From positions 1 through 17,056 of the forward strand of contig JBLIRN010000058.1 in the NCBI GenBank assembly GCA_049472315.1: DNA of 17,056 nt. Direction: 5' to 3'. Source of the stretch: a bacterium. Lineage in GTDB: Bacteria; SZUA-182; DTGQ01; JAFGSM01. The stretch's first letter is position 1. Every line of letters starts with the position of its first letter. Made by a program: the position numbers and the translations under genes. The notes under the pieces are model-generated. The model worked only from the letters and a program-made list of their open reading frames with translations. It ran no database searches and was not told where the DNA came from. Shown here one piece after another: positions 273 through 17,056 of the stretch.

Positions 273-875
273 ATGAAAAGAGGTAATACTACGTTATTCC
301 GGTTCCTGGGCCTGTGTGTAACAGCGTTATTAATTGCGTTTCTTTCCGCATCTCCTTGCGCCTTTGCAAGAGGCGGTGCCGTTGGTGGCCTCGGCGGCGG
401 CCTCGGCGGGGTGATGGTCAGTCCTGTGATGGCCGGAGCCGGTGCTGCCACAGGTCAGCTCGGTCTCATGGCGGGCGCCGGATTAATGGGCGGCGGTCTT
501 ATGGCCATGGGCACGGGATATATGAACCAGTATGGCGCGCAGGCTGCCGGATTAATGGGCGCAGGCGCAGGGTATATGAGCCAGTATGGCGCAGGTCCCG
601 GTGCCGCGATGGCGGGCATGTACGGCACCATGGCCGGGTACGGCCCAATGTTTCAGGCCTCTGCAGCGGGCGCCGGACTCATGGGCGCGGGTTACATGAA
701 TCAGTATGGCGCAGCTCAGGGTGCAGGCTATATGAATATGGGACAGGGCGCCATGTACCAGTACGGAGCAAACGCCGGCAATTGGATGAACCAGAGCGGA
801 TATATGATGCAGAACATGATGCAGAATATGTATAACTGGAACTACCAGAATGCCATCCCATACGAGGTGGAATAG
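273..875 (+). CDS. Secreted low-complexity Gly/Ala/Met/Tyr/Gln repeat protein (hypothetical)
   Basis: ATG preceded by a G-rich RBS-like tract. Sec-type signal peptide (MKR, hydrophobic core, AFA cleavage site). Mature part is nearly uncharged with repeated GLMG and YM(N/S)QYGA units. Followed by a strong hairpin. Confidence 0.8.
   Translation: MKRGNTTLFRFLGLCVTALLIAFLSASPCAFARGGAVGGLGGGLGGVMVSPVMAGAGAATGQLGLMAGAGLMGGGLMAMGTGYMNQYGAQAAGLMGAGAGYMSQYGAGPGAAMAGMYGTMAGYGPMFQASAAGAGLMGAGYMNQYGAAQGAGYMNMGQGAMYQYGANAGNWMNQSGYMMQNMMQNMYNWNYQNAIPYEVE
477..770 (+). repeat. Intragenic imperfect repeats encoding AGLMG and YMxQYGA
   Basis: gccggattaatgggcg at 477-492 and 546-561. ta(t/c)atga..cagtatggcgc at 519-538, 573-592 and 693-712. 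Diverged copy (MYQYGA) at 753-770. Confidence 0.85.
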
Positions 876-1314: not shown

Positions 1315-2334
1315 ATGCACGCACCTGATGGTTTCTATAACACGGGCCTTTGTATCGTAATGGATGGGGTCTGTTTGGGCGTCATCGCCTATAGTGTAAA
1401 AAAGGTATTGAAGAAGCTCGATCGCAAAGTGGTGGCCCTTGCTGCGACAGTCGGCGCCCTTGTCTTCGCGGTCCAGATGGCGAATTTTTGCGTGAGCAAG
1501 GGCTCCTCCTGCCATTTCATGGGAGGTGTGTTTGCCTCCATCATCCTGGGTCCCTATCTGTCAACCATCATGGTCAGCATTATGCACCTTGTCCAGGTCT
1601 TTGTTTTCCAAGACGGAGGGGTGCTCAGCCTTGGGCCGAATCTCCTCACCATCGTCATCATAAGCACATTCCTGGGATATTACCTCTATCGCATCTTCAA
1701 GTCCCTGGTCATCGAACCCTACGGCACCTATATCGGCGCCTTCATCTCTGCATGGCTCACCCTTTTGATCACGGCGATTACCGTTTCCACAATGCTCGCC
1801 TTGTCGGGTGTTGACTCCATGGCGGCAACCCTTGGCCCCATGGTGGGCCCGCATGTTCTGGTGGGGGCGATGGAGGGTCTCGTTACGGTACTGCTGCTGC
1901 TTGTTGTTCAACGGATGAGCCCCGATCTCCTCAATGCCTCCCGGTATTACACCGGGAAGGTCATGCCGGCGGGATACGGAAAAAGCCGGATAAAGACACA
2001 GCATCTTCTTTTGCTCATTGCCCTCTTCGTCGGGATCATCTTCTCTCCCTTCGCATCCCGCAATCCTGACGGATTGGAGAAGCTTGCCCTTGACCGTGGC
2101 TTTTCAGAGACCCACACCACCCTCTATTACCATGCCCCTCTGGCGGATTATTATATCCCGGGCGTGGAAAATGAGCGTATGTCCAGGGGATGTGCCGGAT
2201 TCTTGGGAACGTTGATCACCTTTTCGATTTGTTGGGGTATCGGGATGATGCTGGCGCGTAGGGGAAAGGAACTCACCGGTGCGTCGAACATGCGATGCGG
2301 GAGCGAGGTCGTTGGATACGAGAAAAAAGGGTAA
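1315..2334 (+). CDS. cbiM: Ni/Co ECF-transporter S component (CbiM/NikM) fused to a PDGLE (NikN-type) domain
   Basis: True start is ATG 1315, giving the family N-terminus MHAPDGF. His falls at position 67 (SSCHFMGG). Conserved LGP and QxFxFxDGGxxxLGxN motifs. C-terminal FASRNPDGLE motif between two TM helices. CbiM versus NikM specificity cannot be resolved from sequence alone. Confidence 0.88.
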   Translation: MHAPDGFYNTGLCIVMDGVCLGVIAYSVKKVLKKLDRKVVALAATVGALVFAVQMANFCVSKGSSCHFMGGVFASIILGPYLSTIMVSIMHLVQVFVFQDGGVLSLGPNLLTIVIISTFLGYYLYRIFKSLVIEPYGTYIGAFISAWLTLLITAITVSTMLALSGVDSMAATLGPMVGPHVLVGAMEGLVTVLLLLVVQRMSPDLLNASRYYTGKVMPAGYGKSRIKTQHLLLLIALFVGIIFSPFASRNPDGLEKLALDRGFSETHTTLYYHAPLADYYIPGVENERMSRGCAGFLGTLITFSICWGIGMMLARRGKELTGASNMRCGSEVVGYEKKG

Positions 2335-5272
2335 GATTGCCCACAAGATCCTGTGGCCCTTTCTGATCATTTTTGCACTGCTCATCATCTCGCTTGTAGG
2401 GTCTCTGGGGAATTTCGTCAATGAGCAGGTCCGCCTGATCATTCTGCATCAAGCAGAGACAAAGCTCAACGTGGCCCGGCAGCATTTTGAAAACAGCAAG
2501 CAGACAATGCTTTCGGAGATGAGAGAGCTTTCCTCTCTTATCAGCCCCATGCTCCTTGAGCAGGCGCCCCTGCCGATCATTAAAAATGTTCTGAGGTCCA
2601 TCACGAGATTTCACCGGTATTCGATCATCCAGGTGTACGACCCTAACGGAGGTATTATTATGGAAACCGGCCAGGATGAAACGGGGGGGGAAGGGCACCT
2701 GTGTTTTGATTCATTTTTGCAGCATTTCGAGGGATCGGCATCGGAGTGGGTATCGATCAAGGGATGCGACACCGATCTTGCAATCAACCTCTTCATGCCC
2801 ATCCAGGAACAGGGGAAATCGATCGGTTTTGTCAGGCTCTTCCGCCAGTTCGGCCATCACCTCTGTCAGGAGATACAGCGGGAGGTGCAGGTGCCGGTGT
2901 ATCTCTTTATTAACGACAGGGTAATACCCTTCCCTGATACGCACATAAAGGGTGCATCCATCAATCTTCCGCCCTATGTTTTTGATACCGCCCTCCAAAA
3001 GCAGCCGAAGATTGTCGAGCGGGTGTATATCGAGGATAAGGAACATATAGCGGGTTTTCTGCCCTTCGAGGACCCGCACAGCAGGAACGTGGAGGCGCTC
3101 CTTATGATCCTCATGGATACCTCCCTGATCCGGCAGCTTTCCGCAGGAATCATACGAACAGGCGGCTTTTACGGTCTGGTGGGCATTTGTATCCTGGCCT
3201 TCATGGGTATCCTCATTGCCAAGGGGCTCACCCTTCCCCTGGTTGATCTTGTCGGGATGACCAGAAGGGTGGGAGAGGGGGATCTCGATGTGACGATTAG
3301 CACCGGATCCAATGACGAGCTTGGAGAGCTTGCAGAGGCCTTTAACAGGATGGCTAAAAGATTGAATGAAACAACGGTTTCAAGGGATTTCGTAGACAAT
3401 ATTATCGAGAGCATGATGGACCTCTTGTTCGTTGTTGACCGGGATGGGCGGATCCAGATGGCCAACAAGGCGGTGGGCGGTGCATTGGGGTACGGGCGGG
3501 ACGAGATCATCGGGATGATGATCGGGGATCTTTTGCAGGACAAGGAGGACATTTCCCTTTTGCCTTGCGGGGTGCACGGCCAATGCACGGAAGCAGAGGA
3601 TATAAAGGATTACGAGACCTATATGACGGGGAAGGACGGGAAATCATTCCCCGTACTCTTCAGCAAGTCGGTGATGCAGGATAAGGCAGGCGGCGTGATG
3701 TGCGCCGTGTGCACCGCCAAGGATATCTCCCTTCAGAAGTTGGCCGAACAAAAGATACGGGAAAATCAGGAATACCTGAAACGAATACTGGACTCCATTC
3801 AGACAGGCATCATGATCATTGAGGGGGATACCGATACCATATTCGATGTCAATCCGGTTGCCGCCGAAATGATCGGAGCAGCCAAGGAGGCGATTGTCGG
3901 CTCACCGGGGCGTGACTATTTTACACAGGATAATTGGAGTGCCCAGGAGAAGGGAATAATCGGTGTGGAATCCCTGCTCGTAACCTCACAGGGTACAAGG
4001 GTGCCGATCCTCATGTCCCAGAACAACATCGTGTTGAACGGCCGCGGGTATCTCCTCAGGGCCTTTCTGGACATCACCGAGCGGAAACGCATCGAGGAGG
4101 CGGTTCGCCAGAGCGAACTGGCCAAGGCGGAACGGGAAAGGCTTTTTTCACTCCTCGAAACGATGCCCGCGTTGATGTTTCTTCTGGCGCCCGATTATTC
4201 GGTTCCTTTTGCAAATCGTACATTCAGGGAGGTGTTCGGCGAGCCGGGAGGAAGACCCTGCTATGAGATACTTCACGGACGAAAGGAGCCGTGTGAAACA
4301 TGCACATGTTTCCGGGTATTTGAAAAAAATGAGATGATAAAATGGGAATGGACGAATGCACGCGGACGTTCCTATGAGTTTTATGACTGCCCCTATACCG
4401 ATATCGACGGCTCCCCCTTGGTGATTGAGTTGGGGATCGACATCACGGACCGAAAAGAGGCGGAGGAGGCGCGAAAACAGGTTGAGCGCAAGCTTGAGGA
4501 ACAAAGGGCAAAGGCAATCCTTTCGGATCGTTTAAGGTCCTTGGGTGAGATGGCAACCGGGATCGCCCATGAGCTGAATCAACCACTTTCCGGTGTGCGG
4601 GGGCTCGCCGAACATATCCTGATCGGTTTCAACCGGGGCTGGCGCCATTCGGAGGAAACGATCAGGGAAAATGTTGAAATGATTATCGAGCAGACCGATC
4701 GGATGACGCATGTGATCGAGCACACCCGGCTTTTTGCACGGGGTGCGGAGGATTCAGAGCTTGTTCCGGTTCAGGTGAATGAGGTGATAGGTTCGGCGCT
4801 GGGGCTTATCGGCGCGCAACTGCGAGCACGGGGGCTCGTCGTGCAATGCGAATTGGGAGCAGGATTGCCGGCCGTGCTGGCAAATCCCTTCTCCCTTGAA
4901 GAGGTGATACTGAACCTGCTCAACAACGCCAGGGACGCGCTTATGGAAAAGGAAGGGGAGGGCACCCCGGACAATACCCCTCAGGTCATGATACGCACCG
5001 GTGAGACAGGAAAGGATTCGTTGCGCTTCGTCAGCATCGACGTCATTGACCAGGGAACGGGAATACCTCGGGAGGTGCTCGGCAAGGTCTTCGACCCCTT
5101 TTTCACCACCAAGTCTCCTGACCGAGGAACGGGTCTGGGTCTTGCCGTTTCAAAGTCGATTGTCGAGGGGTTCAAGGGAAGCATCGCCATCCGTTCAAAA
5201 CCAGGCAAGGGGACGACGGTCAGCGTTTACCTGCCTGCAATTCAAGAAAATAAGGAACAGGACAATGGCTGA
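2312..5272 (+). CDS. Membrane sensor histidine kinase (2 TM, extracytoplasmic domain, HAMP, three PAS/PAC, HisKA, HATPase)
   Basis: HAMP (DELGELAEAFNRM), PAC-type endings (DIS, DITERK, DITDRK), H-box GIAHELNQPL, N-box NLLNNARDA, DQGTGI, FDPFFTTK, GTGLGL. Start uncertain: TTG 2312 has an upstream GGAG/GAGG; the ORF track uses GTG 2279. Confidence 0.93.
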   Translation: MDTRKKGKIAHKILWPFLIIFALLIISLVGSLGNFVNEQVRLIILHQAETKLNVARQHFENSKQTMLSEMRELSSLISPMLLEQAPLPIIKNVLRSITRFHRYSIIQVYDPNGGIIMETGQDETGGEGHLCFDSFLQHFEGSASEWVSIKGCDTDLAINLFMPIQEQGKSIGFVRLFRQFGHHLCQEIQREVQVPVYLFINDRVIPFPDTHIKGASINLPPYVFDTALQKQPKIVERVYIEDKEHIAGFLPFEDPHSRNVEALLMILMDTSLIRQLSAGIIRTGGFYGLVGICILAFMGILIAKGLTLPLVDLVGMTRRVGEGDLDVTISTGSNDELGELAEAFNRMAKRLNETTVSRDFVDNIIESMMDLLFVVDRDGRIQMANKAVGGALGYGRDEIIGMMIGDLLQDKEDISLLPCGVHGQCTEAEDIKDYETYMTGKDGKSFPVLFSKSVMQDKAGGVMCAVCTAKDISLQKLAEQKIRENQEYLKRILDSIQTGIMIIEGDTDTIFDVNPVAAEMIGAAKEAIVGSPGRDYFTQDNWSAQEKGIIGVESLLVTSQGTRVPILMSQNNIVLNGRGYLLRAFLDITERKRIEEAVRQSELAKAERERLFSLLETMPALMFLLAPDYSVPFANRTFREVFGEPGGRPCYEILHGRKEPCETCTCFRVFEKNEMIKWEWTNARGRSYEFYDCPYTDIDGSPLVIELGIDITDRKEAEEARKQVERKLEEQRAKAILSDRLRSLGEMATGIAHELNQPLSGVRGLAEHILIGFNRGWRHSEETIRENVEMIIEQTDRMTHVIEHTRLFARGAEDSELVPVQVNEVIGSALGLIGAQLRARGLVVQCELGAGLPAVLANPFSLEEVILNLLNNARDALMEKEGEGTPDNTPQVMIRTGETGKDSLRFVSIDVIDQGTGIPREVLGKVFDPFFTTKSPDRGTGLGLAVSKSIVEGFKGSIAIRSKPGKGTTVSVYLPAIQENKEQDNG

Positions 5273-6632
5273 TGACCAATCGCTCAGGATCCTTATTGTC
5301 GACGATGAAAGGATCCTCCATCAGACCCTCTCCAGGTATCTTCATGACCTGGGACACCTCGTGGACAGCACCTTTGAAGGCACTACCGCCCTGGAGATGA
5401 TCACGTCGCGCGAATACCACCTCGTTCTTCTCGATATTCTCATGCCGGGGATGGATGGAATGTCCCTTTTGCCCAAAATCGCCCAGATGCGTCCCGATCT
5501 GCCCATTGTCATGATCACCGGCCACGGAAATATGGACATGGCCATACAGGCCCTGCGATCCGGGGCAGCGGACTTCCTCAGGAAGCCGATCAAGCTGCTC
5601 GAACTGGACGCGGTATTGGAGAAGACATCCCACATCCGTCACCTGAGAGAGGGACAGCAGCACCTCAGGAACACCATACGGGGCATACAAACCGCTGAGG
5701 ACATCCGGCTCAGAAATCGCTCGTTGATCGGACGGAGCAAACAGACGGCGGCGGTGCGCAGGCAGATCCGGCTTGCCGTGGAAGGGGGATGCGATACCAT
5801 CCTGATTACCGGTGAGACCGGGGCCGGCAAGGAGATCGTTGCCCGCGAGATTCATTTTTCCTGCGGTGACGACAGGAGGCCATTCATCGCGGTAAGCTGC
5901 CCAGCCATCCCCGACACCCTTGTCGAGAGTGAGCTTTTCGGCCATGTCAAGGGGGCGTTCACCGGGGCCACCCAGGACAAGGCCGGTGATTTCGAGCTTG
6001 CAGACGGCGGCACCCTCTTTCTCGATGAGATTGCGGATCTTTCCCTTCCTGCGCAGGCAAAGATCCTTCGGGTATTGGAGACGAGGAAATTCAGGAGGGT
6101 GGGGGGATCACGGGAGATTCATACCAGTGTGCGCGTCATTGCAGCCACGAACGCCACGCTGGAAGAATTGGCGGAATCATCCGGATTTCGCAAGGATCTC
6201 TTCTACCGGCTCAATGTCTTTACCATTCATCTTGCCCCTCTCAGGGAGCGCCGTCCGGATATCCTCCCCCTGGCTGAGCACTTCCTCGCCATGTATACTG
6301 TCGGTCGCGGGCTTTGCATCAGCGGTTTTTCAGAGAAGACACGGGAGGCACTCCTCAATTATGATTTTCCGGGAAATGCCCGCGAATTGCGCAATATCAT
6401 TGAGCGGGCGGCAATCTTATGCAGGTCCGGAGAGATCCGGCCCGAGCATCTTAACCTCCCGTCACGAAACGGGAAGCCGGCAATGTTCTTCGATCAGTGT
6501 AATGGGCAAGACGAAAGGGCACGGATTATATCCGCACTTGAAAGGGTGAAATGGAACCGTCGCAAGGCGGCGGAGACCCTCGGCATCCCTTACTCGACAC
6601 TCAATTACAAGATACGAAAATTTGGCATATAG
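5265..6632 (+). CDS. Sigma54-dependent response regulator (NtrC/AtoC family: REC, AAA+, Fis-type HTH)
   Basis: Start ATG 5265 (MADDQSLRILIVDDE) overlaps the kinase stop. Phospho-acceptor in LLDILMPGMDG, Walker A GETGAGKE, intact GAFTGA, Walker B LFLDEI, FPGNAREL, and HTH WNRRKAAETLGI. Confidence 0.95.
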   Translation: MADDQSLRILIVDDERILHQTLSRYLHDLGHLVDSTFEGTTALEMITSREYHLVLLDILMPGMDGMSLLPKIAQMRPDLPIVMITGHGNMDMAIQALRSGAADFLRKPIKLLELDAVLEKTSHIRHLREGQQHLRNTIRGIQTAEDIRLRNRSLIGRSKQTAAVRRQIRLAVEGGCDTILITGETGAGKEIVAREIHFSCGDDRRPFIAVSCPAIPDTLVESELFGHVKGAFTGATQDKAGDFELADGGTLFLDEIADLSLPAQAKILRVLETRKFRRVGGSREIHTSVRVIAATNATLEELAESSGFRKDLFYRLNVFTIHLAPLRERRPDILPLAEHFLAMYTVGRGLCISGFSEKTREALLNYDFPGNARELRNIIERAAILCRSGEIRPEHLNLPSRNGKPAMFFDQCNGQDERARIISALERVKWNRRKAAETLGIPYSTLNYKIRKFGI

Positions 6633-6788: not shown

Positions 6789-7025
6789 TCAGGCGATCTG
6801 CGCTATGCTCTGGGATATTCCCCTCGCCGAATCCGAACCCAAAAACACGATCAGGCCCTTTTCGATGCCGGCGGCCAGCGCGGGAAGATCCTTAATGCCG
6901 AGGGTATCCTCCGCGATTCCCAGCCTTTTGAACTGCACGGTCAGGGCTGCCGCGGCCATTGATGCACCGATCAAGGGCTCAAGTAACGAATAGACCTTTT
7001 GAACCAACGTATTTGTGTAACTCAT
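6789..7025 (-). CDS. Small helical hypothetical protein (78 aa), translationally coupled to the upstream membrane protein
   Basis: ATG at 7025 forms an ATGA overlap with the TGA of the upstream gene (7022-7024). Sequence MSYTNTLVQK...SIAQIA looks like amphipathic helices. The longer 7226 start overlaps the upstream CDS in another frame. Confidence 0.7.
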   Translation of the reverse strand: MSYTNTLVQKVYSLLEPLIGASMAAAALTVQFKRLGIAEDTLGIKDLPALAAGIEKGLIVFLGSDSARGISQSIAQIA

Positions 7026-7846
7026 GCCTCTCTCCTTGTTGTGCAGGATTGGATCAGCTCCATCTGGTAGAAACCTCCCAGTCCGATCAGAAGATACCCT
7101 GCATTCCATGCCACATCGATGTACGTTGATGGATTCCCGGCACCATACAATCCCACCCAGCCAAGATAGGAGTAAAGGATATCCGCTATGGTCATGGCGA
7201 TAAAGCCCGCTGCGATATACTTCCACGGCCTGGACACGCTTCCCTTACCGAATAGGTAGGTGATATACAGCAAGAAGCCGGCAGGAATGATGAGAAACAG
7301 GTCGCCGATCGGATAGAAAAGGTATACGAATTTCGCAAATACGCTTGTTTCCGGGTCCTTGATGATGGGAATGAGCAACAGGTAGATCAATCCGCCGGTG
7401 ATCACGATGAATACCGCGGAAAGAATCGTATAAGCCTTTGTATTGCCTAATGGAAATCCACTTTTCTTATAGCCGTATATCAACATCGCCAGGCCGGCGA
7501 ACAGGGGAACATACCCTGCAAGCCATGAATAATCCGCAATGGTGGGGAATGTCTCGTTCATATCGAATTTGAAGATGAGTTCCAGGATGGCGTAAATGCT
7601 TTCCCCGCCGAAGAAGAGTATAATGCCGACAAGAAGCAGCATCCATGAGATTTTGGTGGCATCGAATTCCTGGAAGCTTTTGAATGCGGCGGCAAGTCCG
7701 ATACCCGCCACAATGACCGTGATTATCGGGAAAAGGTCGCTCACCACTGCCAGGACATTCTCCCCGCCTATACCAAAAAAATAGAACAACACGTTGATAA
7801 CGACCAAGAACAGCCCCACAATCCATATGGTTTGAGATTTTTTCAT
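7022..7846 (-). CDS. Multi-pass (about 7-8 TM) membrane protein resembling integral-membrane sensory domains
   Basis: Start MKKSQ at 7846 with G-rich RBS. Alternating hydrophobic helices. Motifs FPTIADYSWLAGY, YPIGDL, W..IAAG...IAD..Y and D..W..GY recall membrane input domains of GGDEF proteins and kinases. No cytoplasmic output domain. Confidence 0.75.
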   Translation of the reverse strand: MKKSQTIWIVGLFLVVINVLFYFFGIGGENVLAVVSDLFPIITVIVAGIGLAAAFKSFQEFDATKISWMLLLVGIILFFGGESIYAILELIFKFDMNETFPTIADYSWLAGYVPLFAGLAMLIYGYKKSGFPLGNTKAYTILSAVFIVITGGLIYLLLIPIIKDPETSVFAKFVYLFYPIGDLFLIIPAGFLLYITYLFGKGSVSRPWKYIAAGFIAMTIADILYSYLGWVGLYGAGNPSTYIDVAWNAGYLLIGLGGFYQMELIQSCTTRREA

Positions 7847-8185: not shown

Positions 8186-8974
8186 TCAGGGCACGAACCA
8201 GCGCAGGAGCCCAGCTATTAGGCGAATCATCCGCACAAACTGGTTCGAAAGGCAACCGCTTCGCATAAACCGTGAAAGCATAGAGAAAAACGGAAGGGCC
8301 TCATTATCCAGAAGAAGGAATGCGAAGCCGAACTGATGCGGGCATTTTTTCAATCCATGCATGATTGAGCCCAGGGGGTCGTTTTTCCTGGGGGGCGGAA
8401 ATCCATCAGCCTGTTCATCGGTATCCGGTTGCAGTGTGCATGCCTCATCCATGACGAGATCCTCGAAGATTTCGTCCCCGCACTTATTGAGGACCTCGAC
8501 GATATCCCGGCTGATCAGGAACAGGGAGCCGCACATATCACAGGCGAGCAGGTGATCTTCGAACAATCCCTTGACCTCTTCGTTGAGTTCATCGGCCAGA
8601 TAGTCATCGATATATCCCCTGAACAACCTGTGGGACATATGGGGGTCAGAAAAGGATGCCTTGTGGCTGATCAAGCGGGGCTCTTTCCTGAGCATTCCCC
8701 GGCAGACTGTTTCAAGTGCCCTTTCCCTGTATCCGCGGATATCTTCGAGGTCGACATCAGGTGTCGATTGCCGCGATCCCTGAGTATAGTAGCTCTTGAA
8801 GAGGGCATATCGTTCCGAAGGAGGCAGCGTTGAAACAAGCTCGAATACACCATCCAGACTCATCGAGCCGATTGCATAGAGATGGACCTCTTCAAGCCTC
8901 TGATCCGCGCAGTCATGCCCGGCATTGGCGCATCTTCTGATAATAAAGAATTGTTTTCTCATTGTCGATCTCAT
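8186..8974 (-). CDS. Zinc-binding anti-sigma-like (zf-HC2/ZAS) protein with an N-terminal degenerate sigma region-4-like segment
   Basis: IDDYLADELNEEVKGLFEDHLLACDMC matches the ZAS pattern YLxxEL...FExHLxxCxxC (H141-C148, nt 8531-8554). Residues 43-90 (LVSTLPPSERYALFKSYY...RERAL) resemble sigma70 region 4. Start could also be ATG 8962. Confidence 0.7.
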   Translation of the reverse strand: MRSTMRKQFFIIRRCANAGHDCADQRLEEVHLYAIGSMSLDGVFELVSTLPPSERYALFKSYYTQGSRQSTPDVDLEDIRGYRERALETVCRGMLRKEPRLISHKASFSDPHMSHRLFRGYIDDYLADELNEEVKGLFEDHLLACDMCGSLFLISRDIVEVLNKCGDEIFEDLVMDEACTLQPDTDEQADGFPPPRKNDPLGSIMHGLKKCPHQFGFAFLLLDNEALPFFSMLSRFMRSGCLSNQFVRMIRLIAGLLRWFVP

Positions 8975-9224: not shown

Positions 9225-10973
9225 CTAAAATCGCTGATTGAACATTACGGTTAATTGAGGAAGCACCTTCTTGAATGTGTCATCATACCTGACCAGATTT
9301 TTTTTAAGTAATTCGTCGGCCCATGTTTTTGTCCTCACCATTAATTCCTTTTCTTGGCAATGGCTTCTTTCCTTTTGTGAATCAATTCGTTTTCCATGGT
9401 GAGGGACTGTGCATGCCATGCAGTTGCTGATGATCTTACGAATTTCCGGGGGATACTGGAGACAGGGGAGAATATGATCCGCCTTTTCCACAATCGTATC
9501 GATGAACCGCCTTCCTTCACCATCATATCTGCCCCTTAATTCATGACACAAGGCGCATAACTGCTCATGCCCCTCATTGCAGGTTGTGCATGCAAGGATT
9601 TCTTCAAGACCCACGCAAAAAAGGTGCTGATCGGCATCCGAAAGGAATTTCCGTGCCTTTTGCCGGAGACCGTTCAGGGAGAATTGGTAGTCTACCTTGG
9701 GGAAGAAATGCTCGATACAGTGCTCCAATTCAGGATAATCCTCAGTGGTTACCATAAGTACCCGCATCATCCCGCGTTCCTTCATTGCGCGCAGTTCATC
9801 CAACCAGAGGGTGAGACCGTTGTATTCCCGATAGGTCTTTTCCACGACAATCCTTTTCCCTGCGCTGGCGGTAAGACCATATGCGATGAGGTGCATGGAT
9901 CGTCTCTTCCTATTATGTTTATTATGCTGATGTAACCCCTTGAGATGATTCAGGTCCAGGAACAAAAACAGCCAGTCGGACTCAAGGGGACTCGAATTCA
10001 ACTGTTTCATCATTCCAATGATGGCATCTATGTCGAATGGTGCTCTGGCCAAGTCCTGCTTGATTATTTCGAGCAGCCTCTGCAACCTCCGGCTGATCGA
10101 TGCGATGGACATGTCCTTGCCGAACTGCTCATGCACCTCCCGTTGTATCGCGGCCTGGTTGAATTCCTCGAGGAAGTAAGCCCTGAAGATGAATCCGTCA
10201 AGGGTGCTGATGTGGGGATAGAACCGGTTACGCAGGTATGCGCCCACCTGCTTGTTATGAATTATCCTTTCGATAACATCCCTGCCGTAAGGGGATTCGA
10301 AGAAATCAAAGATATCGCTGGAAAATATGCAGACGGGGCGGTTTCTTGCCTTCTCATTATTGATCCTTGAGGAGATTATCTTGAGGATGTAGGCATAGTA
10401 ATTCTCGATAGGGTCCCCTTTATTGTCATGTGTCCCATTCCGGATCACCTGGTTGATAAGCTGATCAATGGCCTTTTTCGCTATCCTGGTGTGGTCGCAA
10501 AATTCTCTATCCCGTTCAAATAAGCGATTCGTGATATTGAGGACATTGATCTCATAACTCCTCAGGCGTTTTTCTGCTTCATCTGCGAGTATACCGTGGG
10601 GCCCTTGTGTGTCGAGAACATTCTGGTAGAGCGTATGGCAATCCATGGTGATGGTCTGATGGAGACGTTTTCTGACGTATCTCCTGGCCCCTGATTTGAG
10701 CGCCTGGGCAAGGAGTGACCTTTCAGGGATCTCATTCTGCCCAAGATTGTCAATGAATTCCCGGAGGAATTCCTCAGACAGGCGGAACGGAGTGGGAAGT
10801 TTGTCGAAAAAGTCCCGGTATACCTCATAGTGCTCAATGATCACCGCAATCCGTTCCCTGAATGCGCTGATGAATCCCTTTGTGCCGTCATCGTCTGAGC
10901 CTTTTTCCTGTGTGGAATCCCTTTTTATCACCACGCCCACCCCCCTCCAAAAGGTGCTTAGGTGAAACAACAT
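9225..10973 (-). CDS. Sigma70/ECF-like protein fused to a degenerate IS256/Mutator-family transposase domain
   Basis: aa ~130-212 resemble sigma region 2 (NYYAYILKIISSRINNEKARNR). aa ~255-305 form an HTH (ISTLDGFIFRAYFLEEFNQAAI...SIASISRRLQR). aa ~326-582 follow IS256 transposase motifs in order: SPLESDWLFLFLD, IAYGLTASAGKRIV, WLDELRAMKERGMMRVLMVTTED, IEHFFPKVDYQ, YPPEIRKII, and C-terminal LPQLTVMFNQRF. Start may be GTG 10934 (GGAGG 9 nt upstream). Confidence 0.75.
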   Translation of the reverse strand: MLFHLSTFWRGVGVVIKRDSTQEKGSDDDGTKGFISAFRERIAVIIEHYEVYRDFFDKLPTPFRLSEEFLREFIDNLGQNEIPERSLLAQALKSGARRYVRKRLHQTITMDCHTLYQNVLDTQGPHGILADEAEKRLRSYEINVLNITNRLFERDREFCDHTRIAKKAIDQLINQVIRNGTHDNKGDPIENYYAYILKIISSRINNEKARNRPVCIFSSDIFDFFESPYGRDVIERIIHNKQVGAYLRNRFYPHISTLDGFIFRAYFLEEFNQAAIQREVHEQFGKDMSIASISRRLQRLLEIIKQDLARAPFDIDAIIGMMKQLNSSPLESDWLFLFLDLNHLKGLHQHNKHNRKRRSMHLIAYGLTASAGKRIVVEKTYREYNGLTLWLDELRAMKERGMMRVLMVTTEDYPELEHCIEHFFPKVDYQFSLNGLRQKARKFLSDADQHLFCVGLEEILACTTCNEGHEQLCALCHELRGRYDGEGRRFIDTIVEKADHILPCLQYPPEIRKIISNCMACTVPHHGKRIDSQKERSHCQEKELMVRTKTWADELLKKNLVRYDDTFKKVLPQLTVMFNQRF

Positions 10974-12151: not shown

Positions 12152-13204
12152 TCAAGCCAGGGTGATTTGCTCCTTAACCTCCTCGAGCCCCTTGAGGCCG
12201 AGGCCCTTTATGATCACCACCCATCCGGCAAGCACCCACAGATAGGCGATGAAGAATCTCCAGAGGATCAACAGTATCCCCAGGAGATGCTTGGGCACAA
12301 AGGGATAGAAGAGCACGTAGAATCCCCCTTCCGCAAATCCACTCCCGCCCGGGGTCGGGGTCAAATAGAGGAGGAAATAGAGCACAATCTGTATGGCCAG
12401 CACCTTGAGGAAATGGATATCATATGAGAGTCCCTTGAGCAGGACATACGCAACCGAGTAATTTGCCAGCATGGTGAGGATCGTCAATATCCCCGTATAC
12501 ACGACGCTCATCTTTCGTTTTTGAAACAGATACTTGAAAGAGGATATAAACTCCTCAATCCACCAGTATATGTGTCGCATCCACACCGTGGGGCTGGAGT
12601 GCCTTTGGAAGATCCTGAATCGGTATAAAAATCCGATCACCTTTTCGAGCATGGTGTGAAGCTTGTCCAGATTCAGGAAGCCATAGATGATGATCCCGAC
12701 AATTACCAGGAATAGAATGGCCATATAATCGAAGAGCGATTTCATGAGGGAGGTCTTGAGATATTCGCGGTGATAAAGGAGGACAACAGGCCCGGCAACG
12801 GCAATGATGAAGATGAGGAAGATGCCCCGTACGATCGCAATTGCCGTTGCCTTTTGGGTATCGATACCCGTTTTCTCGGTGAGCAGGTATATGAGGACAG
12901 GCTCGCCTCCCATTGCCGAGGGGGTGATGTTCGCCAGGAAGTTGTAGGCGAGTATAGCCTTCAATCCCTCCCAGAAGGGAAGGTGGAAGCCGAATGCCTG
13001 GCAGAGTGTCTGTATCCTCATGGAATCGAAGCAGTTGGCAAGCAGGCCCAGGATGAATGAAAGGAATATGTATCGGAGGCGCACGTGCTGGAGTGCTTCC
13101 CATGTCTTCTGCCCTACGGTGAAGAAGAGCACGGCGCCGATGATGGTCACACTGATGAGGAGCGAGGCAACAAGGAGAAATCTGAGTGAAAATCCTTTGC
13201 GCAT
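12152..13204 (-). CDS. Lysylphosphatidylglycerol synthase TM-region (UPF0104, flippase-like) membrane protein
   Basis: Polytopic membrane protein with family motifs NITPSAMGGEP, PTPGGSGFAEG and LLILWRF. Confidence 0.85.
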   Translation of the reverse strand: MRKGFSLRFLLVASLLISVTIIGAVLFFTVGQKTWEALQHVRLRYIFLSFILGLLANCFDSMRIQTLCQAFGFHLPFWEGLKAILAYNFLANITPSAMGGEPVLIYLLTEKTGIDTQKATAIAIVRGIFLIFIIAVAGPVVLLYHREYLKTSLMKSLFDYMAILFLVIVGIIIYGFLNLDKLHTMLEKVIGFLYRFRIFQRHSSPTVWMRHIYWWIEEFISSFKYLFQKRKMSVVYTGILTILTMLANYSVAYVLLKGLSYDIHFLKVLAIQIVLYFLLYLTPTPGGSGFAEGGFYVLFYPFVPKHLLGILLILWRFFIAYLWVLAGWVVIIKGLGLKGLEEVKEQITLA

Positions 13205-13424
13205 AGAAGCATGCCTATCTATCCGATTTGAACATGGACATTCCTTCGCCTGATGAGGATGGAATATACAACGGAAGGCTGATATTATATTAACGATAAA
13301 CTATAGCAGATGCCCGTCTTGTTTGTCAAAAGGTCTCTCCACCGCGGAGGGAATAAGAGTTGGTCCTATTCTTTTTGAGCGAAAGGCTCACGAACATTTT
13401 ATTGTAAAGGAGCGGGAAGGGATC

Positions 13425-14174
13425 ATGAAACAATGTGTGCTCTTGAGACATGGTGAAAGTACGTGGAACAAGGAGAATCGTTTTACCGGATGGACCGATG
13501 TGGATCTTTCGGAGAAGGGTATCGCGGAGGCTCACCAGGGGGGAATATCCCTCAGGGAGGCCGGGTTCCTTTTTGACGTTGCTTACACCTCGGTGCTGAA
13601 GCGGGCCATTCGAACACTGTGGATCGTTCAGGATGAGATGGACCTCATGTGGATCCCTGTCCATCGGTCCTGGAGATTGAACGAGCGACACTACGGCGCA
13701 CTCCAGGGGCTCAACAAGGCGGAGATGGCGGAAAAATTCGGTGAACGTCAGGTCCAGATATGGCGCAGGAGCTACGATGTCCAACCCCCTTCCCTTGAAG
13801 AGACGGATGAACGGTTTCCCGGCCGTGATCCCCGCTACAGGGAGGTGGATACAAAGGACCTGCCCAGGGCGGAGAGTTTGAAGGACACGGTGAGACGGTT
13901 TCTGCCTTACTGGCACGAGGTGATCGCCCCTTCCTTGCAGTCGGGAAACAGGGTCCTCATCGCGGCCCATGGAAACAGCCTTCGCGCACTGGTCAAGTAT
14001 CTTGACAATGTATCCGACGAGGAGATCGTGGGCCTGAACATCCCCACAGGGATACCACTGGTGTACGAATTGAATGATGATTTGAGCCCGATGAGACATT
14101 ACTACCTTGCCGATGAGGAGCAGGTTCGCCAGGCTGCACAGCTCGTGGCGAACCAGGGGAAGGCAGCACAATAG
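13425..14174 (+). CDS. gpmA: 2,3-bisphosphoglycerate-dependent phosphoglycerate mutase
   Basis: [47 protein letters not shown] and [12 protein letters not shown]. True start ATG 13425 after a purine-rich RBS. Confidence 0.97.
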
Positions 14175-14252
14175 CGTAATCCTCGCTTCGTTGTTTGCGG
14201 TGCGTTCAGCGCAACGACAGTAAGCTGTTGTGCATTCACAAAGGGGGTAACC

Positions 14253-14579
14253 ATGAAGAAGGGATATTTCATTTGTGTCCTGCTCTGTGTCGTTCTTCTT
14301 GTCTGTGCCGGTTGTTTGACCGTGGGGCACGATTTCCCGGTCGATCCGGTCAGCCGGATCCAGATCGGGAAGACTACCAAGGGGGAGGTGCTCAGCCTGT
14401 TCGGGCAACCATGGAGGACAGGCATCGAGAATGGCATGAAGACATGGACCTACGGCCTTTATCGATACAGCATGTTCGGTGAGTCAAGGACGCGCGACCT
14501 CGTGCTCCGTTTCGATACGAACGACACGGTGGCATCATTTTCATTCAATTCCAATTATCCGGAGGACATGTCGCCGTAA
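14253..14579 (+). CDS. Small outer-membrane lipoprotein, BamE/SmpA-OmlA-like
   Basis: Signal peptide with lipobox (CAG-C). IQIGKTTKGEVLSLFGQP, WTY and LVLRFD...V match the SmpA/OmlA fold pattern. Confidence 0.8.
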   Translation: MKKGYFICVLLCVVLLVCAGCLTVGHDFPVDPVSRIQIGKTTKGEVLSLFGQPWRTGIENGMKTWTYGLYRYSMFGESRTRDLVLRFDTNDTVASFSFNSNYPEDMSP

Positions 14580-14607
14580 TGCCATTTCCTGATGAGTGTA
14601 GTCCCCA

Positions 14608-16437
14608 ATGGGAACGGTGAGCCTCAGGCAATCCCGCTTATCCTCCTGCATTTTCCCTGTATATATGTGCCTGTTCTGTATCGTGTGTTTGGTGCTGCAT
14701 CCTTTCTTCCAGACAAACATTCATGCGGATCCGGGCATTTCCTATCAGGTAAAAATGGAGGGGGTGCGCGACAGGGGTCTGCGCAATCTTCTGGAGGGGG
14801 TTTCCTCCACTATTGCCCGGCGGAAGATTCCTGCCGCTTCGCTGAATCTTCTCAGAAAGAGGGCGGAGCGAGACATCCCCGGCCTTGTGAAGGCGCTCAA
14901 ATCCCAGGGCTATTTCGGCGGCAGCGTGTCCGTGGAGGTCGATGCCGGTGCCAAACCGGCAGCGGTCATCTTTCGCATCACCCCCGGCCCCCCCTTTCTC
15001 CTGGAATCGGTGGACATACGCTTAGGCGATGAAGGCGCGGCATTCGATCGAACACTCCCCGGACCCCGCGAGATTGGGCTGGTCCCGGGAGAAAGGGCTC
15101 ACAGCAAGGCCATCCTGGATGCCCAGAAGTACCTCATCCACCGCCTCATGACCAAGGGATATCCCTTTGCCGCCGTTTCCCGCCGCGAGGTTGTGGCGGA
15201 CCATGCAACGCAGAGGGTCTCCGTGCGTTTCCTGGTTGACCCCGGGCCGGTGGCGTGGTTCGGCCCGACGCGGATCGAAGGGCTGCATTCGGTTGATGAG
15301 ACCTTTGTCCGAGGGAGAATCCCATGGGAGGTGGGGGACCGCTACAATGAGGCCCTTGTGGCCGGGCTGCAGAACCGGCTCGTCGAAACCGGCCTGTTTG
15401 CAGTGGTGAACGTGAGGAAAGGGGAGACCCTCACCGGTGAGGGGCGGTTGCCGGTGGCGGTCACAGTGAAGGAACGGAAACATCGCACCATCAAGGCGGG
15501 GGTGAAATATACCACGGATGAGGGGGCTGGGGCGGGGCTCTCCTGGGAGCACCGGAATCTCTTCGGACGAGGGGAGCGGTTGAGCCTGGGAGTGGAAGCA
15601 ACCGAGATCGATCATTCAGTGGAGGGGACATTTCGAAAGCCTGCATTCTTCCACCCCGACAGGACCCTTATCCTGAGAGGCGGGATTGCTGAGGAATACC
15701 CCGATGCGTATACCAGTCGCGCTGCAAGGGGCGAGGCACTTGTGGAGCAAAGGTTTTCCAGGGGGGTGAAGGTGGGGGGAGGTGCAGCCGTCAGGACCTC
15801 GCAGGTCATCCAATTCGACCGGAGGGAGGGCTTCAACCTGGTGTACCTCCCTGTGTATCTTGACTGGGACACCAGCAATGACATCCTCGATCCGGCCAGG
15901 GGAGGCCGCCTGACCTTCCAGGTGGCGCCCTATTACGATGTCTATGGAGCGGATCTGGGTTTTGTGAAGGGGGATCTCAGGTACAGCCGGTATGCCACCA
16001 TTGCCAGGCACCCCATGACCGTTTTTGCTGGCCGGATGGCATTCGGTGCCGTCGACGGGGCAGGACGAGAGGCCATTCCCGCCGATATCCGGTTTTATGC
16101 CGGAGGCGGGGGGTCCATCCGGGGATATGCCTTTCAGTCGGTGGGCCCTCTTGCTTACGGCGAGCCCATCGGAGGAAGATCGCTCATCGAGATCTCCGCG
16201 GAGGTCAGGGTAAAGGTGACGGACACCGTGGGTCTGGTGACCTTTCTCGACGGGGGGAGCGCCTTCAGTGAAACGGTTCCGCATTTCGAGGAGGACCTCC
16301 GGTGGGGAACCGGGGTGGGGGTCCGCTATTATACCCCGGTCGGCCCTTTACGCCTTGACGTGGGTGTTCCGCTGAATCGCCGGGAAGGGGTCGACAGACG
16401 GCTCCATATATATATAAGCCTCGGACAGGCATTTTGA
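14608..16437 (+). CDS. tamA: Translocation and assembly module outer-membrane Omp85 protein TamA
   Basis: POTRA-like repeats (SQGYF, KGYPFA, TGLF), WEHRNLFGRGE, barrel lid motif RFYAGGGGSIRGY, YYTPVGPLRLDVG and C-terminal SLGQAF. Directly followed by tamB. Confidence 0.9.
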   Translation: MGTVSLRQSRLSSCIFPVYMCLFCIVCLVLHPFFQTNIHADPGISYQVKMEGVRDRGLRNLLEGVSSTIARRKIPAASLNLLRKRAERDIPGLVKALKSQGYFGGSVSVEVDAGAKPAAVIFRITPGPPFLLESVDIRLGDEGAAFDRTLPGPREIGLVPGERAHSKAILDAQKYLIHRLMTKGYPFAAVSRREVVADHATQRVSVRFLVDPGPVAWFGPTRIEGLHSVDETFVRGRIPWEVGDRYNEALVAGLQNRLVETGLFAVVNVRKGETLTGEGRLPVAVTVKERKHRTIKAGVKYTTDEGAGAGLSWEHRNLFGRGERLSLGVEATEIDHSVEGTFRKPAFFHPDRTLILRGGIAEEYPDAYTSRAARGEALVEQRFSRGVKVGGGAAVRTSQVIQFDRREGFNLVYLPVYLDWDTSNDILDPARGGRLTFQVAPYYDVYGADLGFVKGDLRYSRYATIARHPMTVFAGRMAFGAVDGAGREAIPADIRFYAGGGGSIRGYAFQSVGPLAYGEPIGGRSLIEISAEVRVKVTDTVGLVTFLDGGSAFSETVPHFEEDLRWGTGVGVRYYTPVGPLRLDVGVPLNRREGVDRRLHIYISLGQAF

Positions 16438-16441
16438 TTCC

Positions 16442-17056
16442 ATGACACGGCACAGGAGAATCACAAAGGCGGTTGCATGGATTGCCGCTGCTGCGGTTAT
16501 CCTCGTGCTCCTCGCCGTTATCCTCTTTGGTCTTCTCCAGACCGGATTCGTACGGCGGAAACTGGCATCCCTGGTTTCCTCTATGCTGAGCGCACGCACC
16601 GGTCTGCGGTGGGACATCGGGGAAATCGAGGGGCTGATACCCTTCGATATTCACTTGCAGCAGCTCGCCATCGCGGATGGTAAGGGGGAATGGCTTAAGG
16701 CGGAGGCCGCCACCCTTCGCTGGTCTTTTGCCGCGCTTTTGCAGGGGCGCATCCATGTGAACGAATGCAGCGCAGTATTGCTGAGGTTACATCGAATCCC
16801 TGAGCGCCCGGAACAAAAAAAACAGAAGAAAGGGCGGGCGGTCCCCTGGCCCCCACGGGTGCCACCCCTTATTGTGGAGAAGGTGGCGATCGGCAGATGT
16901 GAGATGGGGGAGTCCGTTCTGGGCCGCACGGTTGCCTTCATGCTTGAAGGCGGAATGGTGGTGTCGGATCAGGACAAGGCGATAGATACCTCCCTGCGCA
17001 TCGAGCTGCTTGACGATCCCCGGACGGAGATCACGCTCGTCTCGCGCCTTGCCGGA
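16442..17056 (+). CDS. tamB: TamB-like translocation/assembly module protein, 5' part (runs off the window)
   Basis: Open frame from ATG 16442 to the window end, absent from the ORF track. MTRHRRITKAVAWIAAAAVILVLL signal anchor, then IGEIEGLIPFDI, IADGKGEWL and LRWSFAALLQGRIHV, typical of a TamB N-terminus. Starts 4 nt after tamA. Confidence 0.85.
   Translation, partial: MTRHRRITKAVAWIAAAAVILVLLAVILFGLLQTGFVRRKLASLVSSMLSARTGLRWDIGEIEGLIPFDIHLQQLAIADGKGEWLKAEAATLRWSFAALLQGRIHVNECSAVLLRLHRIPERPEQKKQKKGRAVPWPPRVPPLIVEKVAIGRCEMGESVLGRTVAFMLEGGMVVSDQDKAIDTSLRIELLDDPRTEITLVSRLAG

What the first reader, a model, noticed from the sequence alone, without database searches (positions are those of the whole stretch)
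1315..6632. Orphan Ni/Co S component coupled to a two-component sigma54 system: transporter subunit as possible co-sensor
Known: cbiM/nikM normally lie with T (Q) and ATPase (O) genes. Seen: here the M-PDGLE gene overlaps a histidine kinase gene, which overlaps an NtrC-type regulator, and no Q or O gene is in the window. The NikM metal ligands (Met1, His2, His67) are retained, with extra cysteines beside the site (NFC59, SC66H). Inference: the S component serves as a membrane Ni/Co receptor for the kinase, giving a metal-responsive sigma54 pathway.
Basis: partly seen in the sequence, partly recalled or inferred. Interest (0 to 1): 0.7.

Follow-up and report, generated by a model that had tools for sequence, protein, structure and literature searches.

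The report
Nickel-transporter subunit repurposed as signal receptor
In a group of uncultured sediment bacteria, the metal-binding subunit of a nickel/cobalt importer has left its transporter partners and travels with, or is fused to, a family of membrane signalling proteins, so it probably works as a metal receptor, a role I did not find described.

Summary
Window 1315-2334 encodes a NikM+NikN (CbiM-PDGLE) fusion with Met1/His2/His67 intact. It overlaps a TM-dCache-TM-HAMP-PAS kinase gene, which overlaps an NtrC-type regulator. The genome has a separate nikKMLQO-type operon. The gene belongs to a distinct subfamily found in 10 of 13 genomes of its order. Of 16 His2-intact copies, 15 lie directly before a member of one sensor family, and none of 18 copies lies next to cbiQ (ordinary M genes: 13 of 15). 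The output varies: kinase plus NtrC, hybrid kinase, or a membrane-anchored sigma54 activator. Ten database proteins fuse NikMN to the same sensor family in one chain, and their M groups with this subfamily (99/98). Best reading: NikMN is an accessory metal receptor for the sensor (about 0.6). Against: 3 of 18 sensors have no M upstream, one in a genome lacking the subfamily; the sensor has its own Cache domain; EcfT homologs exist in all 13 genomes; no complex model or assay. Cys59 is not conserved, and Cys66/His91 are absent from the fusions. I found no description in nine literature searches.

The parts
1315..2334 (+). NikM-NikN (CbiM + PDGLE) fused S unit of the sensor-linked subfamily, 339 aa
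   Evidence: Pfam and NCBIfam; 4M58 alignment; AF2 model pLDDT 80 and Foldseek to 4M58/5X3X; 31 proteins at 314 bits or more, then a drop to 184
1315..1320 (+). Met1-His2 codons, the N-terminal metal ligands
   Evidence: ligand roles from PMC3945884; His2 invariant in 18 of 18 linked loci
1510..1515 (+). Cys66 (subfamily-specific) and His67 (fourth metal ligand)
   Evidence: C66 in 37 of 37 subfamily rows versus Gly in 33 of 33 comparison M; H67 in 36 of 37
1585..1587 (+). His91, subfamily-specific, one helical turn before the second-shell Gln94
   Evidence: 37 of 37 subfamily rows, 0 of 33 comparison M, Leu in the fusion-clade row; closeness to the metal is inferred
2312..5272 (+). Sensor histidine kinase, TM-dCache-TM-HAMP-PAS(x3)-HisKA-HATPase, 986 aa from the inferred TTG start (longest frame from GTG 2279); phospho-His753 at 4568
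2312..3373 (+). Membrane input module (TM1, double-Cache domain, TM2, HAMP) that defines the partner family and recurs in the fusions
   Evidence: AF2 pLDDT 91 and dCache fold matches; 24% identity over 363 columns, E 2e-28, to residues 327-677 of fusion P0132; family branch 99/95
5265..6632 (+). NtrC-type response regulator (REC, sigma54 AAA+, Fis HTH), 455 aa; Asp57, GAFTGA at 230
   Evidence: rpoN present in the genome

Best explanation
The NikMN protein is an accessory receptor subunit of the neighbouring membrane sensor. It binds Ni2+ or Co2+ from the periplasm at the Met1/His2/His67 site. It sits against the sensor's transmembrane or juxtamembrane region, and its metal-dependent change is passed through TM2-HAMP-PAS to whichever output is attached. 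[quoted passage not shown] SHOWN: gene arrangement, domain content, intact metal site in sequence, conserved linkage, fusions, purifying selection. INFERRED: contact between the two proteins, metal-dependent control, which metal, direction of control, and target genes. The targets may be the lineage's secreted envelope proteins, which often follow sigma54 motifs. The protein may still move some metal.
For: Linkage: 15 of 16 His2-intact genomic copies are directly followed by the sensor, spacing -23 to +90 nt. The same holds in 5 of 5 metagenome loci that extend past M, of 7 fetched. 0 of 18 subfamily genes have a CbiQ hit within 8 kb, versus 13 of 15 ordinary M genes with same-strand Q within 750 nt in the same 13 genomes. 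Outputs differ among the 15 pairs: 4 kinase + NtrC, 2 hybrid kinase, 1 HAMP-HisKA cut by a contig end, 8 one-component sigma54 activators. Fusion: 10 full-length 1080-1084 aa NikMN-sensor-kinase proteins in three 90% clusters, plus a 322 + 755 aa split pair in one of those clusters. Split and fused M form one branch, 99/98, against 26 other M including M-Q fusions. Split and fusion-clade sensors form one branch, 99/95, against 22 other Cache sensors. The fusion linker joins two cytoplasm-facing ends, NikN last TM to sensor TM1, about 20 aa (topology inferred from PMC3945884). Between kinase-type and activator-type loci the M core is 57% identical with 52 invariant positions of 205. The sensor's periplasmic domain is 17% identical with 3 of 242, all Gly/Pro, which argues against a conserved ligand pocket in the Cache domain. 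M core dN/dS is about 0.07-0.11 in 5 of 5 pairs. The host has NiFe hydrogenases and a CODH-type protein.
Against: 3 of 18 sensor matches have no M upstream. Two are in G010, whose single subfamily M sits on another contig without a sensor. One is in G006 (98% complete), which has the kinase + NtrC pair and no subfamily M; that sensor nests among M-linked ones, so a sensor can be kept after M is lost. The sensor has its own double-Cache domain of a fold that commonly binds small molecules. All 13 genomes carry EcfT/CbiQ homologs. The small-residue face of helix 2 (positions 44/48/52), which I take as the counterpart of the AxxxA T-binding motif, is kept, whereas 5TMR kinases lack that motif (PMC11109136). 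M+N alone give basal uptake (PMC3945884; PMC7689651). In CbrA the kinase can work independently of its fused transporter (PMC7096432), so fusion does not prove coupling. Tree congruence (Mantel r 0.78, 10 of 18 splits) is expected from physical linkage alone. All genomic evidence comes from one order, so the loci are not independent, and profiles A1/A2 were built from these loci. No Ni/Co gene set is consistently adjacent, and no strong sigma54 motif lies in the window.
Confidence: 0.6

Rival explanations
1. Solitary importer in a shared operon. NikMN imports Ni/Co without Q/O, and the sensor responds on its own (Cache ligand, or cytoplasmic metal via PAS), as in CbrA where transport and kinase activity are separable.
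For: M+N are the minimal transporting unit. NikN and the second-shell residues Q94, G101, G102, N109, H180, E187 are kept. Sensors without M exist. CbrA precedent.
Against: The genomes mostly have dedicated MQO importers. It does not explain why M stays with one sensor input family through output swaps and duplications and fuses to it, nor the very low conservation of the Cache domain.
Confidence: 0.17
2. Flux sensing with borrowed motor. NikMN docks on the resident NikQO or another EcfT-ATPase module in trans, and the sensor reads the transport cycle (BceAB-BceS-like).
For: EcfT/CbiQ homologs in 13 of 13 genomes. AxxxA-like face retained. A canonical nik operon lies 8.7 kb from one cassette in G012.
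Against: Metal ECF transporters are described as type 1, with all parts in one operon (PMC3945884). The window M is only 23% identical to the resident M. Residues invariant in 33 of 33 comparison M, such as Pro41, Gly44 and Arg202, are largely lost in the subfamily; their role at the T interface could not be checked. A covalently attached kinase should hinder toppling (inference).
Confidence: 0.1
3. Partner subunit, but not a Ni/Co sensor. The new Cys/His residues (C13, C20, C66, H91) have shifted it to another metal or to redox sensing, or it is a structural subunit of the sensor.
For: C66 and H91 are invariant in 37 of 37 split-subfamily rows and absent from comparison M. No consistent Ni/Co genes lie nearby. 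Two G007 copies have lost His2 and gained a Cys-rich loop.
Against: The whole square-planar site and second shell are kept, and the fusion clade has the ordinary Gly66/Leu91.
Confidence: 0.1
4. Accidental neighbours inherited together in one lineage, with no functional link.
For: Genomic evidence is from one order. The link is broken in G006 and G010.
Against: Overlapping or abutting stop/start in 9 of 18 loci, retention across deep divergence of the sensors, and in-frame fusions in a separate clade.
Confidence: 0.03

Closest known systems
NikMNQO / CbiMNQO group I ECF transporters (TtNikM2 4M58; RcNik(MN)QO; CbiMQO 5X3X)
   Same: S-component fold, N-terminal Met1-His2 plus His67 site, second-shell residues, natural M-N fusion.
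   Different: No Q or O in the operon in 18 of 18 copies; linked or fused to a Cache-HAMP sensor; subfamily-specific Cys/His residues; loss of several residues invariant in comparison M.
5TMR-LYT sensor kinases with S-component fold (BtsS, YpdA; PMC11109136)
   Same: An S-component fold used as the input of signalling proteins.
   Different: There the link is structural only, the fold is the kinase's own membrane domain and lacks AxxxA. Here a sequence-recognisable NikMN is a separate or N-terminally fused subunit added to a sensor that keeps its own TM-Cache-TM-HAMP. The paper does not mention CbiM, NikM, cobalt or nickel.
Trigger transporters / co-sensors: UhpC-UhpB, DctA/DcuB-DcuS, LysP-CadC, BceAB-BceS (named in PMC7096432 and PMC11109136)
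   Same: A transporter or transporter homolog controls a membrane sensor. DcuS has its own periplasmic ligand domain and CadC is a membrane-integrated one-component activator (both recalled).
   Different: Those are secondary carriers or whole ABC exporters for organic solutes. None is an ECF S unit or a metal-binding subunit, and none feeds a membrane-anchored sigma54 activator.
Transporter-kinase fusions CbrA/CrbS (SLC5-STAC-PAS-HK)
   Same: Transporter domain fused N-terminally to a kinase; CbrB is a sigma54 activator (recalled).
   Different: Different transporter family; no STAC domain here; a full TM-Cache-TM-HAMP lies between the two parts.
Solitary S components BioY and BtuM
   Same: S component encoded without an ECF module.
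   Different: Those transport vitamins and are not described as tied to a sensor; PMC11109136 calls them candidate intermediates between transporters and receptors.

Membership tests
CbiM/NikM S-component protein family | PF01891 match and 7-TM NikM fold | tested here: met
   150 bits versus cut-off 23; Foldseek 4M58 E 1e-7, target TM-score 0.83. Below every NCBIfam CbiM equivalog cut-off.
CbiM/NikM S-component protein family | Free N-terminal Met1-His2 and His67; Gln94, Gly101, Gly102, Asn109 and late His/Glu | tested here: met
   start codons directly before His2, most with a ribosome-binding site, in relatives
CbiM/NikM S-component protein family | Binds Ni2+/Co2+ | not testable with these tools
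   inferred from the ligand set only
NikMNQO group I ECF transporter (system) | Auxiliary N (or K+L) subunit | tested here: met
   PDGLE domain 231-315, weak CbiN/NikN-type NCBIfam hits
NikMNQO group I ECF transporter (system) | Dedicated Q and O genes in the same operon | tested here: not met
   0 of 18 subfamily genes with CbiQ within 8 kb; 13 of 15 ordinary M have it within 750 nt
NikMNQO group I ECF transporter (system) | Intact surface for T-subunit docking | tested here: inconclusive
   small residues at 44/48/52 kept; Pro41, Gly44, Arg202 largely lost; the CbiMQO paper was not held
5TMR-LYT S-fold sensor kinases | PF07694 domain as the kinase's own membrane domain | tested here: not met
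   no PF07694 hit in the window proteins or in 15 partner sensors
Trigger transporter / co-sensor pairs | Conserved genetic link or fusion between transporter homolog and sensor | tested here: met
   15 of 16 linked; 10 fused proteins
Trigger transporter / co-sensor pairs | Physical interaction and substrate-dependent control of the sensor | not tested
NtrC-type two-component sigma54 system | HisKA/HATPase kinase with phospho-His; REC Asp, Walker A, GAFTGA, Fis HTH; rpoN in genome | tested here: met

The most novel reading that the evidence does not exclude
A family of ECF metal S units has given up ATP-driven transport and become a modular Ni/Co receptor subunit. It plugs into a Cache-HAMP membrane transducer whose own ligand pocket has decayed, and drives kinases or membrane-anchored sigma54 activators. 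Split and fused forms would be a sequence-level record of the transporter-to-receptor transition so far proposed only from fold similarity.
Probability: 0.45. Interest if true: 0.88.

Novelty: new variant of a known kind. Interest (0 to 1): 0.75.

Why it matters
ECF S components are known as transporter subunits. Their link to receptors rests on fold similarity with 5TMR kinases, and the authors could not resolve the history (PMC11109136). Here a clearly homologous NikMN is tied to a sensor as a separate gene and as a fusion, which makes that transition directly testable with point mutants of known ligands (His2, His67). If true, it is a new way to sense periplasmic nickel or cobalt, using an uptake-type binding site, in anaerobes that depend on Ni enzymes. 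It also points to an overlooked class of membrane-anchored one-component sigma54 activators and a possible part for Ni/Co biosensors.

Tried and rejected
Complex prediction of M with the sensor dimer was not available, so there is no structural evidence either way. Genomic context of the fusions and of the near sensors P0129/P0133/P0134/P0135 was not obtained: profile A2 found nothing in three other phyla (0 of 13, 0 of 13, 0 of 38 genomes, centres picked by dsrA), and these searches had no positive control, so they show nothing. The fusions' host taxon is unknown. A 'longer' search with profile A3 returned 6 proteins, all M-Q or M-Q-O types, and missed the known fusions, so it is insensitive. 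Hidden fusion in the window through an assembly frameshift: rejected (separate starts in relatives). Programmed frameshift at the overlap: considered and rejected, since the A-run is only 6 long and a TTG start matches relatives. Riboswitch control: no Rfam riboswitch in the window or 6 loci. A shared operator upstream of M: none seen by eye in 20 upstream regions; no formal motif search was run. Sigma54 target in the window: no strict motif. RNA runs: only short contigs on the three genes (1844-2022, 4745-4960, several in the regulator), and contigs cannot show transcription or level. ESM Atlas for the fusion returned only generic Cache/HAMP clusters. The statement in PMC2667541 that NikMNQO and NikKMLQO exclude each other was not used, because PMC11247825 reports both in one order. 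Earlier scan notes: five look-ups, nothing bearing on this. Rows left out: the M tree used 41 of the 98 rows and omitted long-branch P0032; the sensor tree dropped 5 linked and about half of the far rows and the HAMP columns.

Full report
What is in the window. The window is all of contig C56 of genome G000 (97.6% complete), an uncultured bacterium whose DNA occurs in marine, estuary, mangrove and soil metagenomes of 7 studies. Bases 1315-2334 encode a 339-aa protein with CbiM (2-205) and PDGLE (231-315) domains, i.e. NikM fused to NikN. Its model matches TtNikM2 and CbiMQO chain M. It overlaps by 23 nt a 986-aa kinase (TTG 2312 inferred from relatives' starts; TM-dCache-TM-HAMP-PAS-HisKA-HATPase), which overlaps by 8 nt a 455-aa NtrC-type regulator with Asp57 and GAFTGA. 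A contig from another study covers the M/kinase junction with no differences. The genome has rpoN, NiFe hydrogenases and a CODH-type protein (the CODH call rests on recalled motifs). It also has a separate nikR / DUF4198-M-L-Q-O operon on C4, whose M is 23% identical to the window's.

Metal site. Yu et al. (PMC3945884; abstract and parts 1-2 of 5 read) show Ni held by Met1, His2 and His67, with Gln94, Gly101, Gly102, Asn109 and a late His/Glu in the second shell. All are present; the H180/E187 equivalence is inferred, as the 4M58 alignment ended at residue 164. Cys66 and His91 are in 37 of 37 subfamily rows and 0 of 33 comparison M proteins, but the fusion-clade row has Gly and Leu, so they are not needed for the sensor link. 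The 33 comparison proteins are the next-best database hits; their operon context was not checked.

A distinct subfamily tied to one sensor family. The protein search gave 31 proteins at 314 bits or more, then a drop to 184. A profile found 18 copies in 10 of the 13 genomes of the order and none in 7 other genomes of the class. Sixteen keep His2, and 15 of these are directly followed by a TM-dCache-TM-HAMP protein. The other two (G007) have Arg in place of His2 and no sensor behind them. Of 7 metagenome loci, 5 extend past M and all 5 carry the sensor or its start (L058 read by eye). In the same 13 genomes, 13 of 15 ordinary M genes have a same-strand cbiQ within 750 nt, against 0 of 18 subfamily genes within 8 kb.

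The output varies, the input does not. Among the 15 genomic pairs, 4 are kinase + NtrC, 2 are hybrid kinases, 1 is HAMP-HisKA cut by a contig end, and 8 are one-component membrane-anchored sigma54 activators (PAS-PAS-AAA-HTH). So M tracks the membrane input module. M and input trees agree (Mantel r 0.78, 0 of 5000 permutations; 10 of 18 splits), which linkage alone would also give. Between the two deep types the M core is 57% identical, with 52 of 205 positions invariant across 18 loci (Met1 by construction). The Cache domain is 17% identical with 3 of 242 invariant, all Gly/Pro. M is under purifying selection (dN/dS about 0.07-0.11 in 5 of 5 pairs, lower than the sensor's in each).

Natural fusions. 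A profile of the input module run over 1.84 billion representatives found P0132, a 1081-aa NikMN-TM-Cache-TM-HAMP-PAS-kinase in one chain. Ten full-length proteins in three 90% clusters from several independent assemblies have this form. One cluster also holds a 322-aa M and a 755-aa sensor that look like the split form; that they share a contig is inferred from equal sources and contig length. Fused and split M proteins form one branch (99/98) against 26 other M proteins including M-Q fusions (both stems are long, so some caution). Their sensors form one branch (99/95) against 22 other Cache sensors. The host and neighbourhood of the fusions were not obtained.

What speaks against. Three of 18 sensor matches have no M upstream: two in G010, whose one subfamily M lies elsewhere without a sensor, and one in G006, a 98% complete genome with the kinase + NtrC pair and no subfamily M. 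That sensor nests among linked ones, so M can be lost while the sensor stays. The sensor has a well-folded double-Cache domain. EcfT homologs are in 13 of 13 genomes, and the small-residue face at 44/48/52 is kept, although Pro41, Gly44 and Arg202 of comparison M are largely lost. The CbiMQO structure paper was not held, so the T interface was not tested. M+N alone transport weakly, and CbrA shows a fused transporter need not control its kinase (PMC7096432, passages). Neighbouring genes are mostly lineage-specific secreted proteins, not Ni/Co genes. Sigma54 motifs follow the cassette in L044, L045, L052 and L068, of 20 loci scanned, with no chance control, and none lies in the window.

Mechanism. 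Most likely (0.6) NikMN is an accessory receptor: metal binds at its N-terminal site, and the change passes in the membrane to the sensor's TM-HAMP and on to a kinase or AAA+ output. Rivals are a solitary importer beside an independent sensor (0.17), flux sensing with borrowed Q/O (0.10), a partner with another ligand or a structural role (0.10), and accident (0.03). Arrangement, conservation and fusion are shown; contact, metal, sign and targets are inferred.

Comparison and novelty. The protein is a member of the CbiM/NikM family, but the locus fails the operon test for a NikMNQO transporter and is not a 5TMR kinase. It works most like the trigger-transporter pairs (UhpC-UhpB, DctA-DcuS, LysP-CadC) and the CbrA fusion. 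Partipilo and Slotboom (PMC11109136; parts 1-3 of 8, term search, and 3 supplement files searched, one scanned file unreadable) link S components to kinases by fold only and never mention CbiM, NikM, nickel or cobalt. Nine searches of the held library showed no CbiM/NikM-sensor pair or fusion; most results were seen as listings only. Passages were read in PMC7689651, PMC6828968, PMC2667541, PMC11247825 and PMC13737181. Subscription reviews on ECF transporters were not searchable and could mention such fusions. Verdict: real, conserved, apparently undescribed; a new variant of transporter co-sensing; interest 0.75.

Noticed in passing
L049, L051, L052, L053, L055, L056, L067, L068, L059, L060, L062, L063 (gene after M): Membrane-anchored one-component sigma54 activators (TM-dCache-TM-HAMP-PAS-PAS-AAA-HTH, 936-1019 aa, GAFTGA intact). 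One literature search listed nothing on this architecture.
   Followed up: partly
L065:7440-8399 and L066:1442-2404 (G007): Two degenerate subfamily copies with Arg in place of His2 and a Cys-rich insertion before His67; no sensor downstream. One shares a contig with a TonB receptor, DUF4198 and a tetrapyrrole methylase.
   Followed up: partly
window 273-875 (+) and genome-wide: Gly/Met/Tyr-rich protein with a signal-peptide-like start and no Pfam hit. Many of the 45 printed (of 58) strict sigma54 motifs in G000 precede similar low-complexity secreted proteins, suggesting a large sigma54 regulon of envelope proteins. No chance control was run.
   Followed up: partly
window 7025-7846 (-) and 6789-7025 (-): Multi-TM protein without Pfam hit, matching unnamed Atlas clusters at 0.96 (about half bacterial, archaeal phyla commonest among named members), followed by a 78-aa protein. 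Not seen in the other cassette loci.
   Followed up: partly
window 9225-10973 (-) and 8186-8974 (-): 582-aa ORF with an IS256/Mutator transposase-like middle (E 3e-19, below cut-off), followed by a 262-aa ORF with an H-x3-C-x2-C motif that recalls anti-sigma zinc fingers (recalled, untested).
   Followed up: no
G000:C47:58341-62040 (-): Close paralog of the kinase C-terminal half (54%) and regulator (68%) with a different membrane input and no M gene, so cross-talk is possible.
   Followed up: partly
P0288, P0282-P0284, P0273-P0281: Other CbiM fusions in the database: with a sulfate permease/STAS protein (P0288), with an ATPase, and with CbiQ.
   Followed up: no
P0032: 225-aa M without PDGLE that branches with the sensor-linked M proteins on a long branch; context unknown.
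   Followed up: no
L055:8533-10069, L059:12171-13689, L052:600-3874: cobS and a cobC-like phosphatase lie near two cassettes and a canonical nik operon near a third; a weak hint of a cobalt/nickel link.
   Followed up: no
window 12152-17056: Ordinary genes: flippase-like LPG synthase TM protein, gpmA, BamE-like lipoprotein, TamA-like and TamB-like proteins.
   Followed up: no
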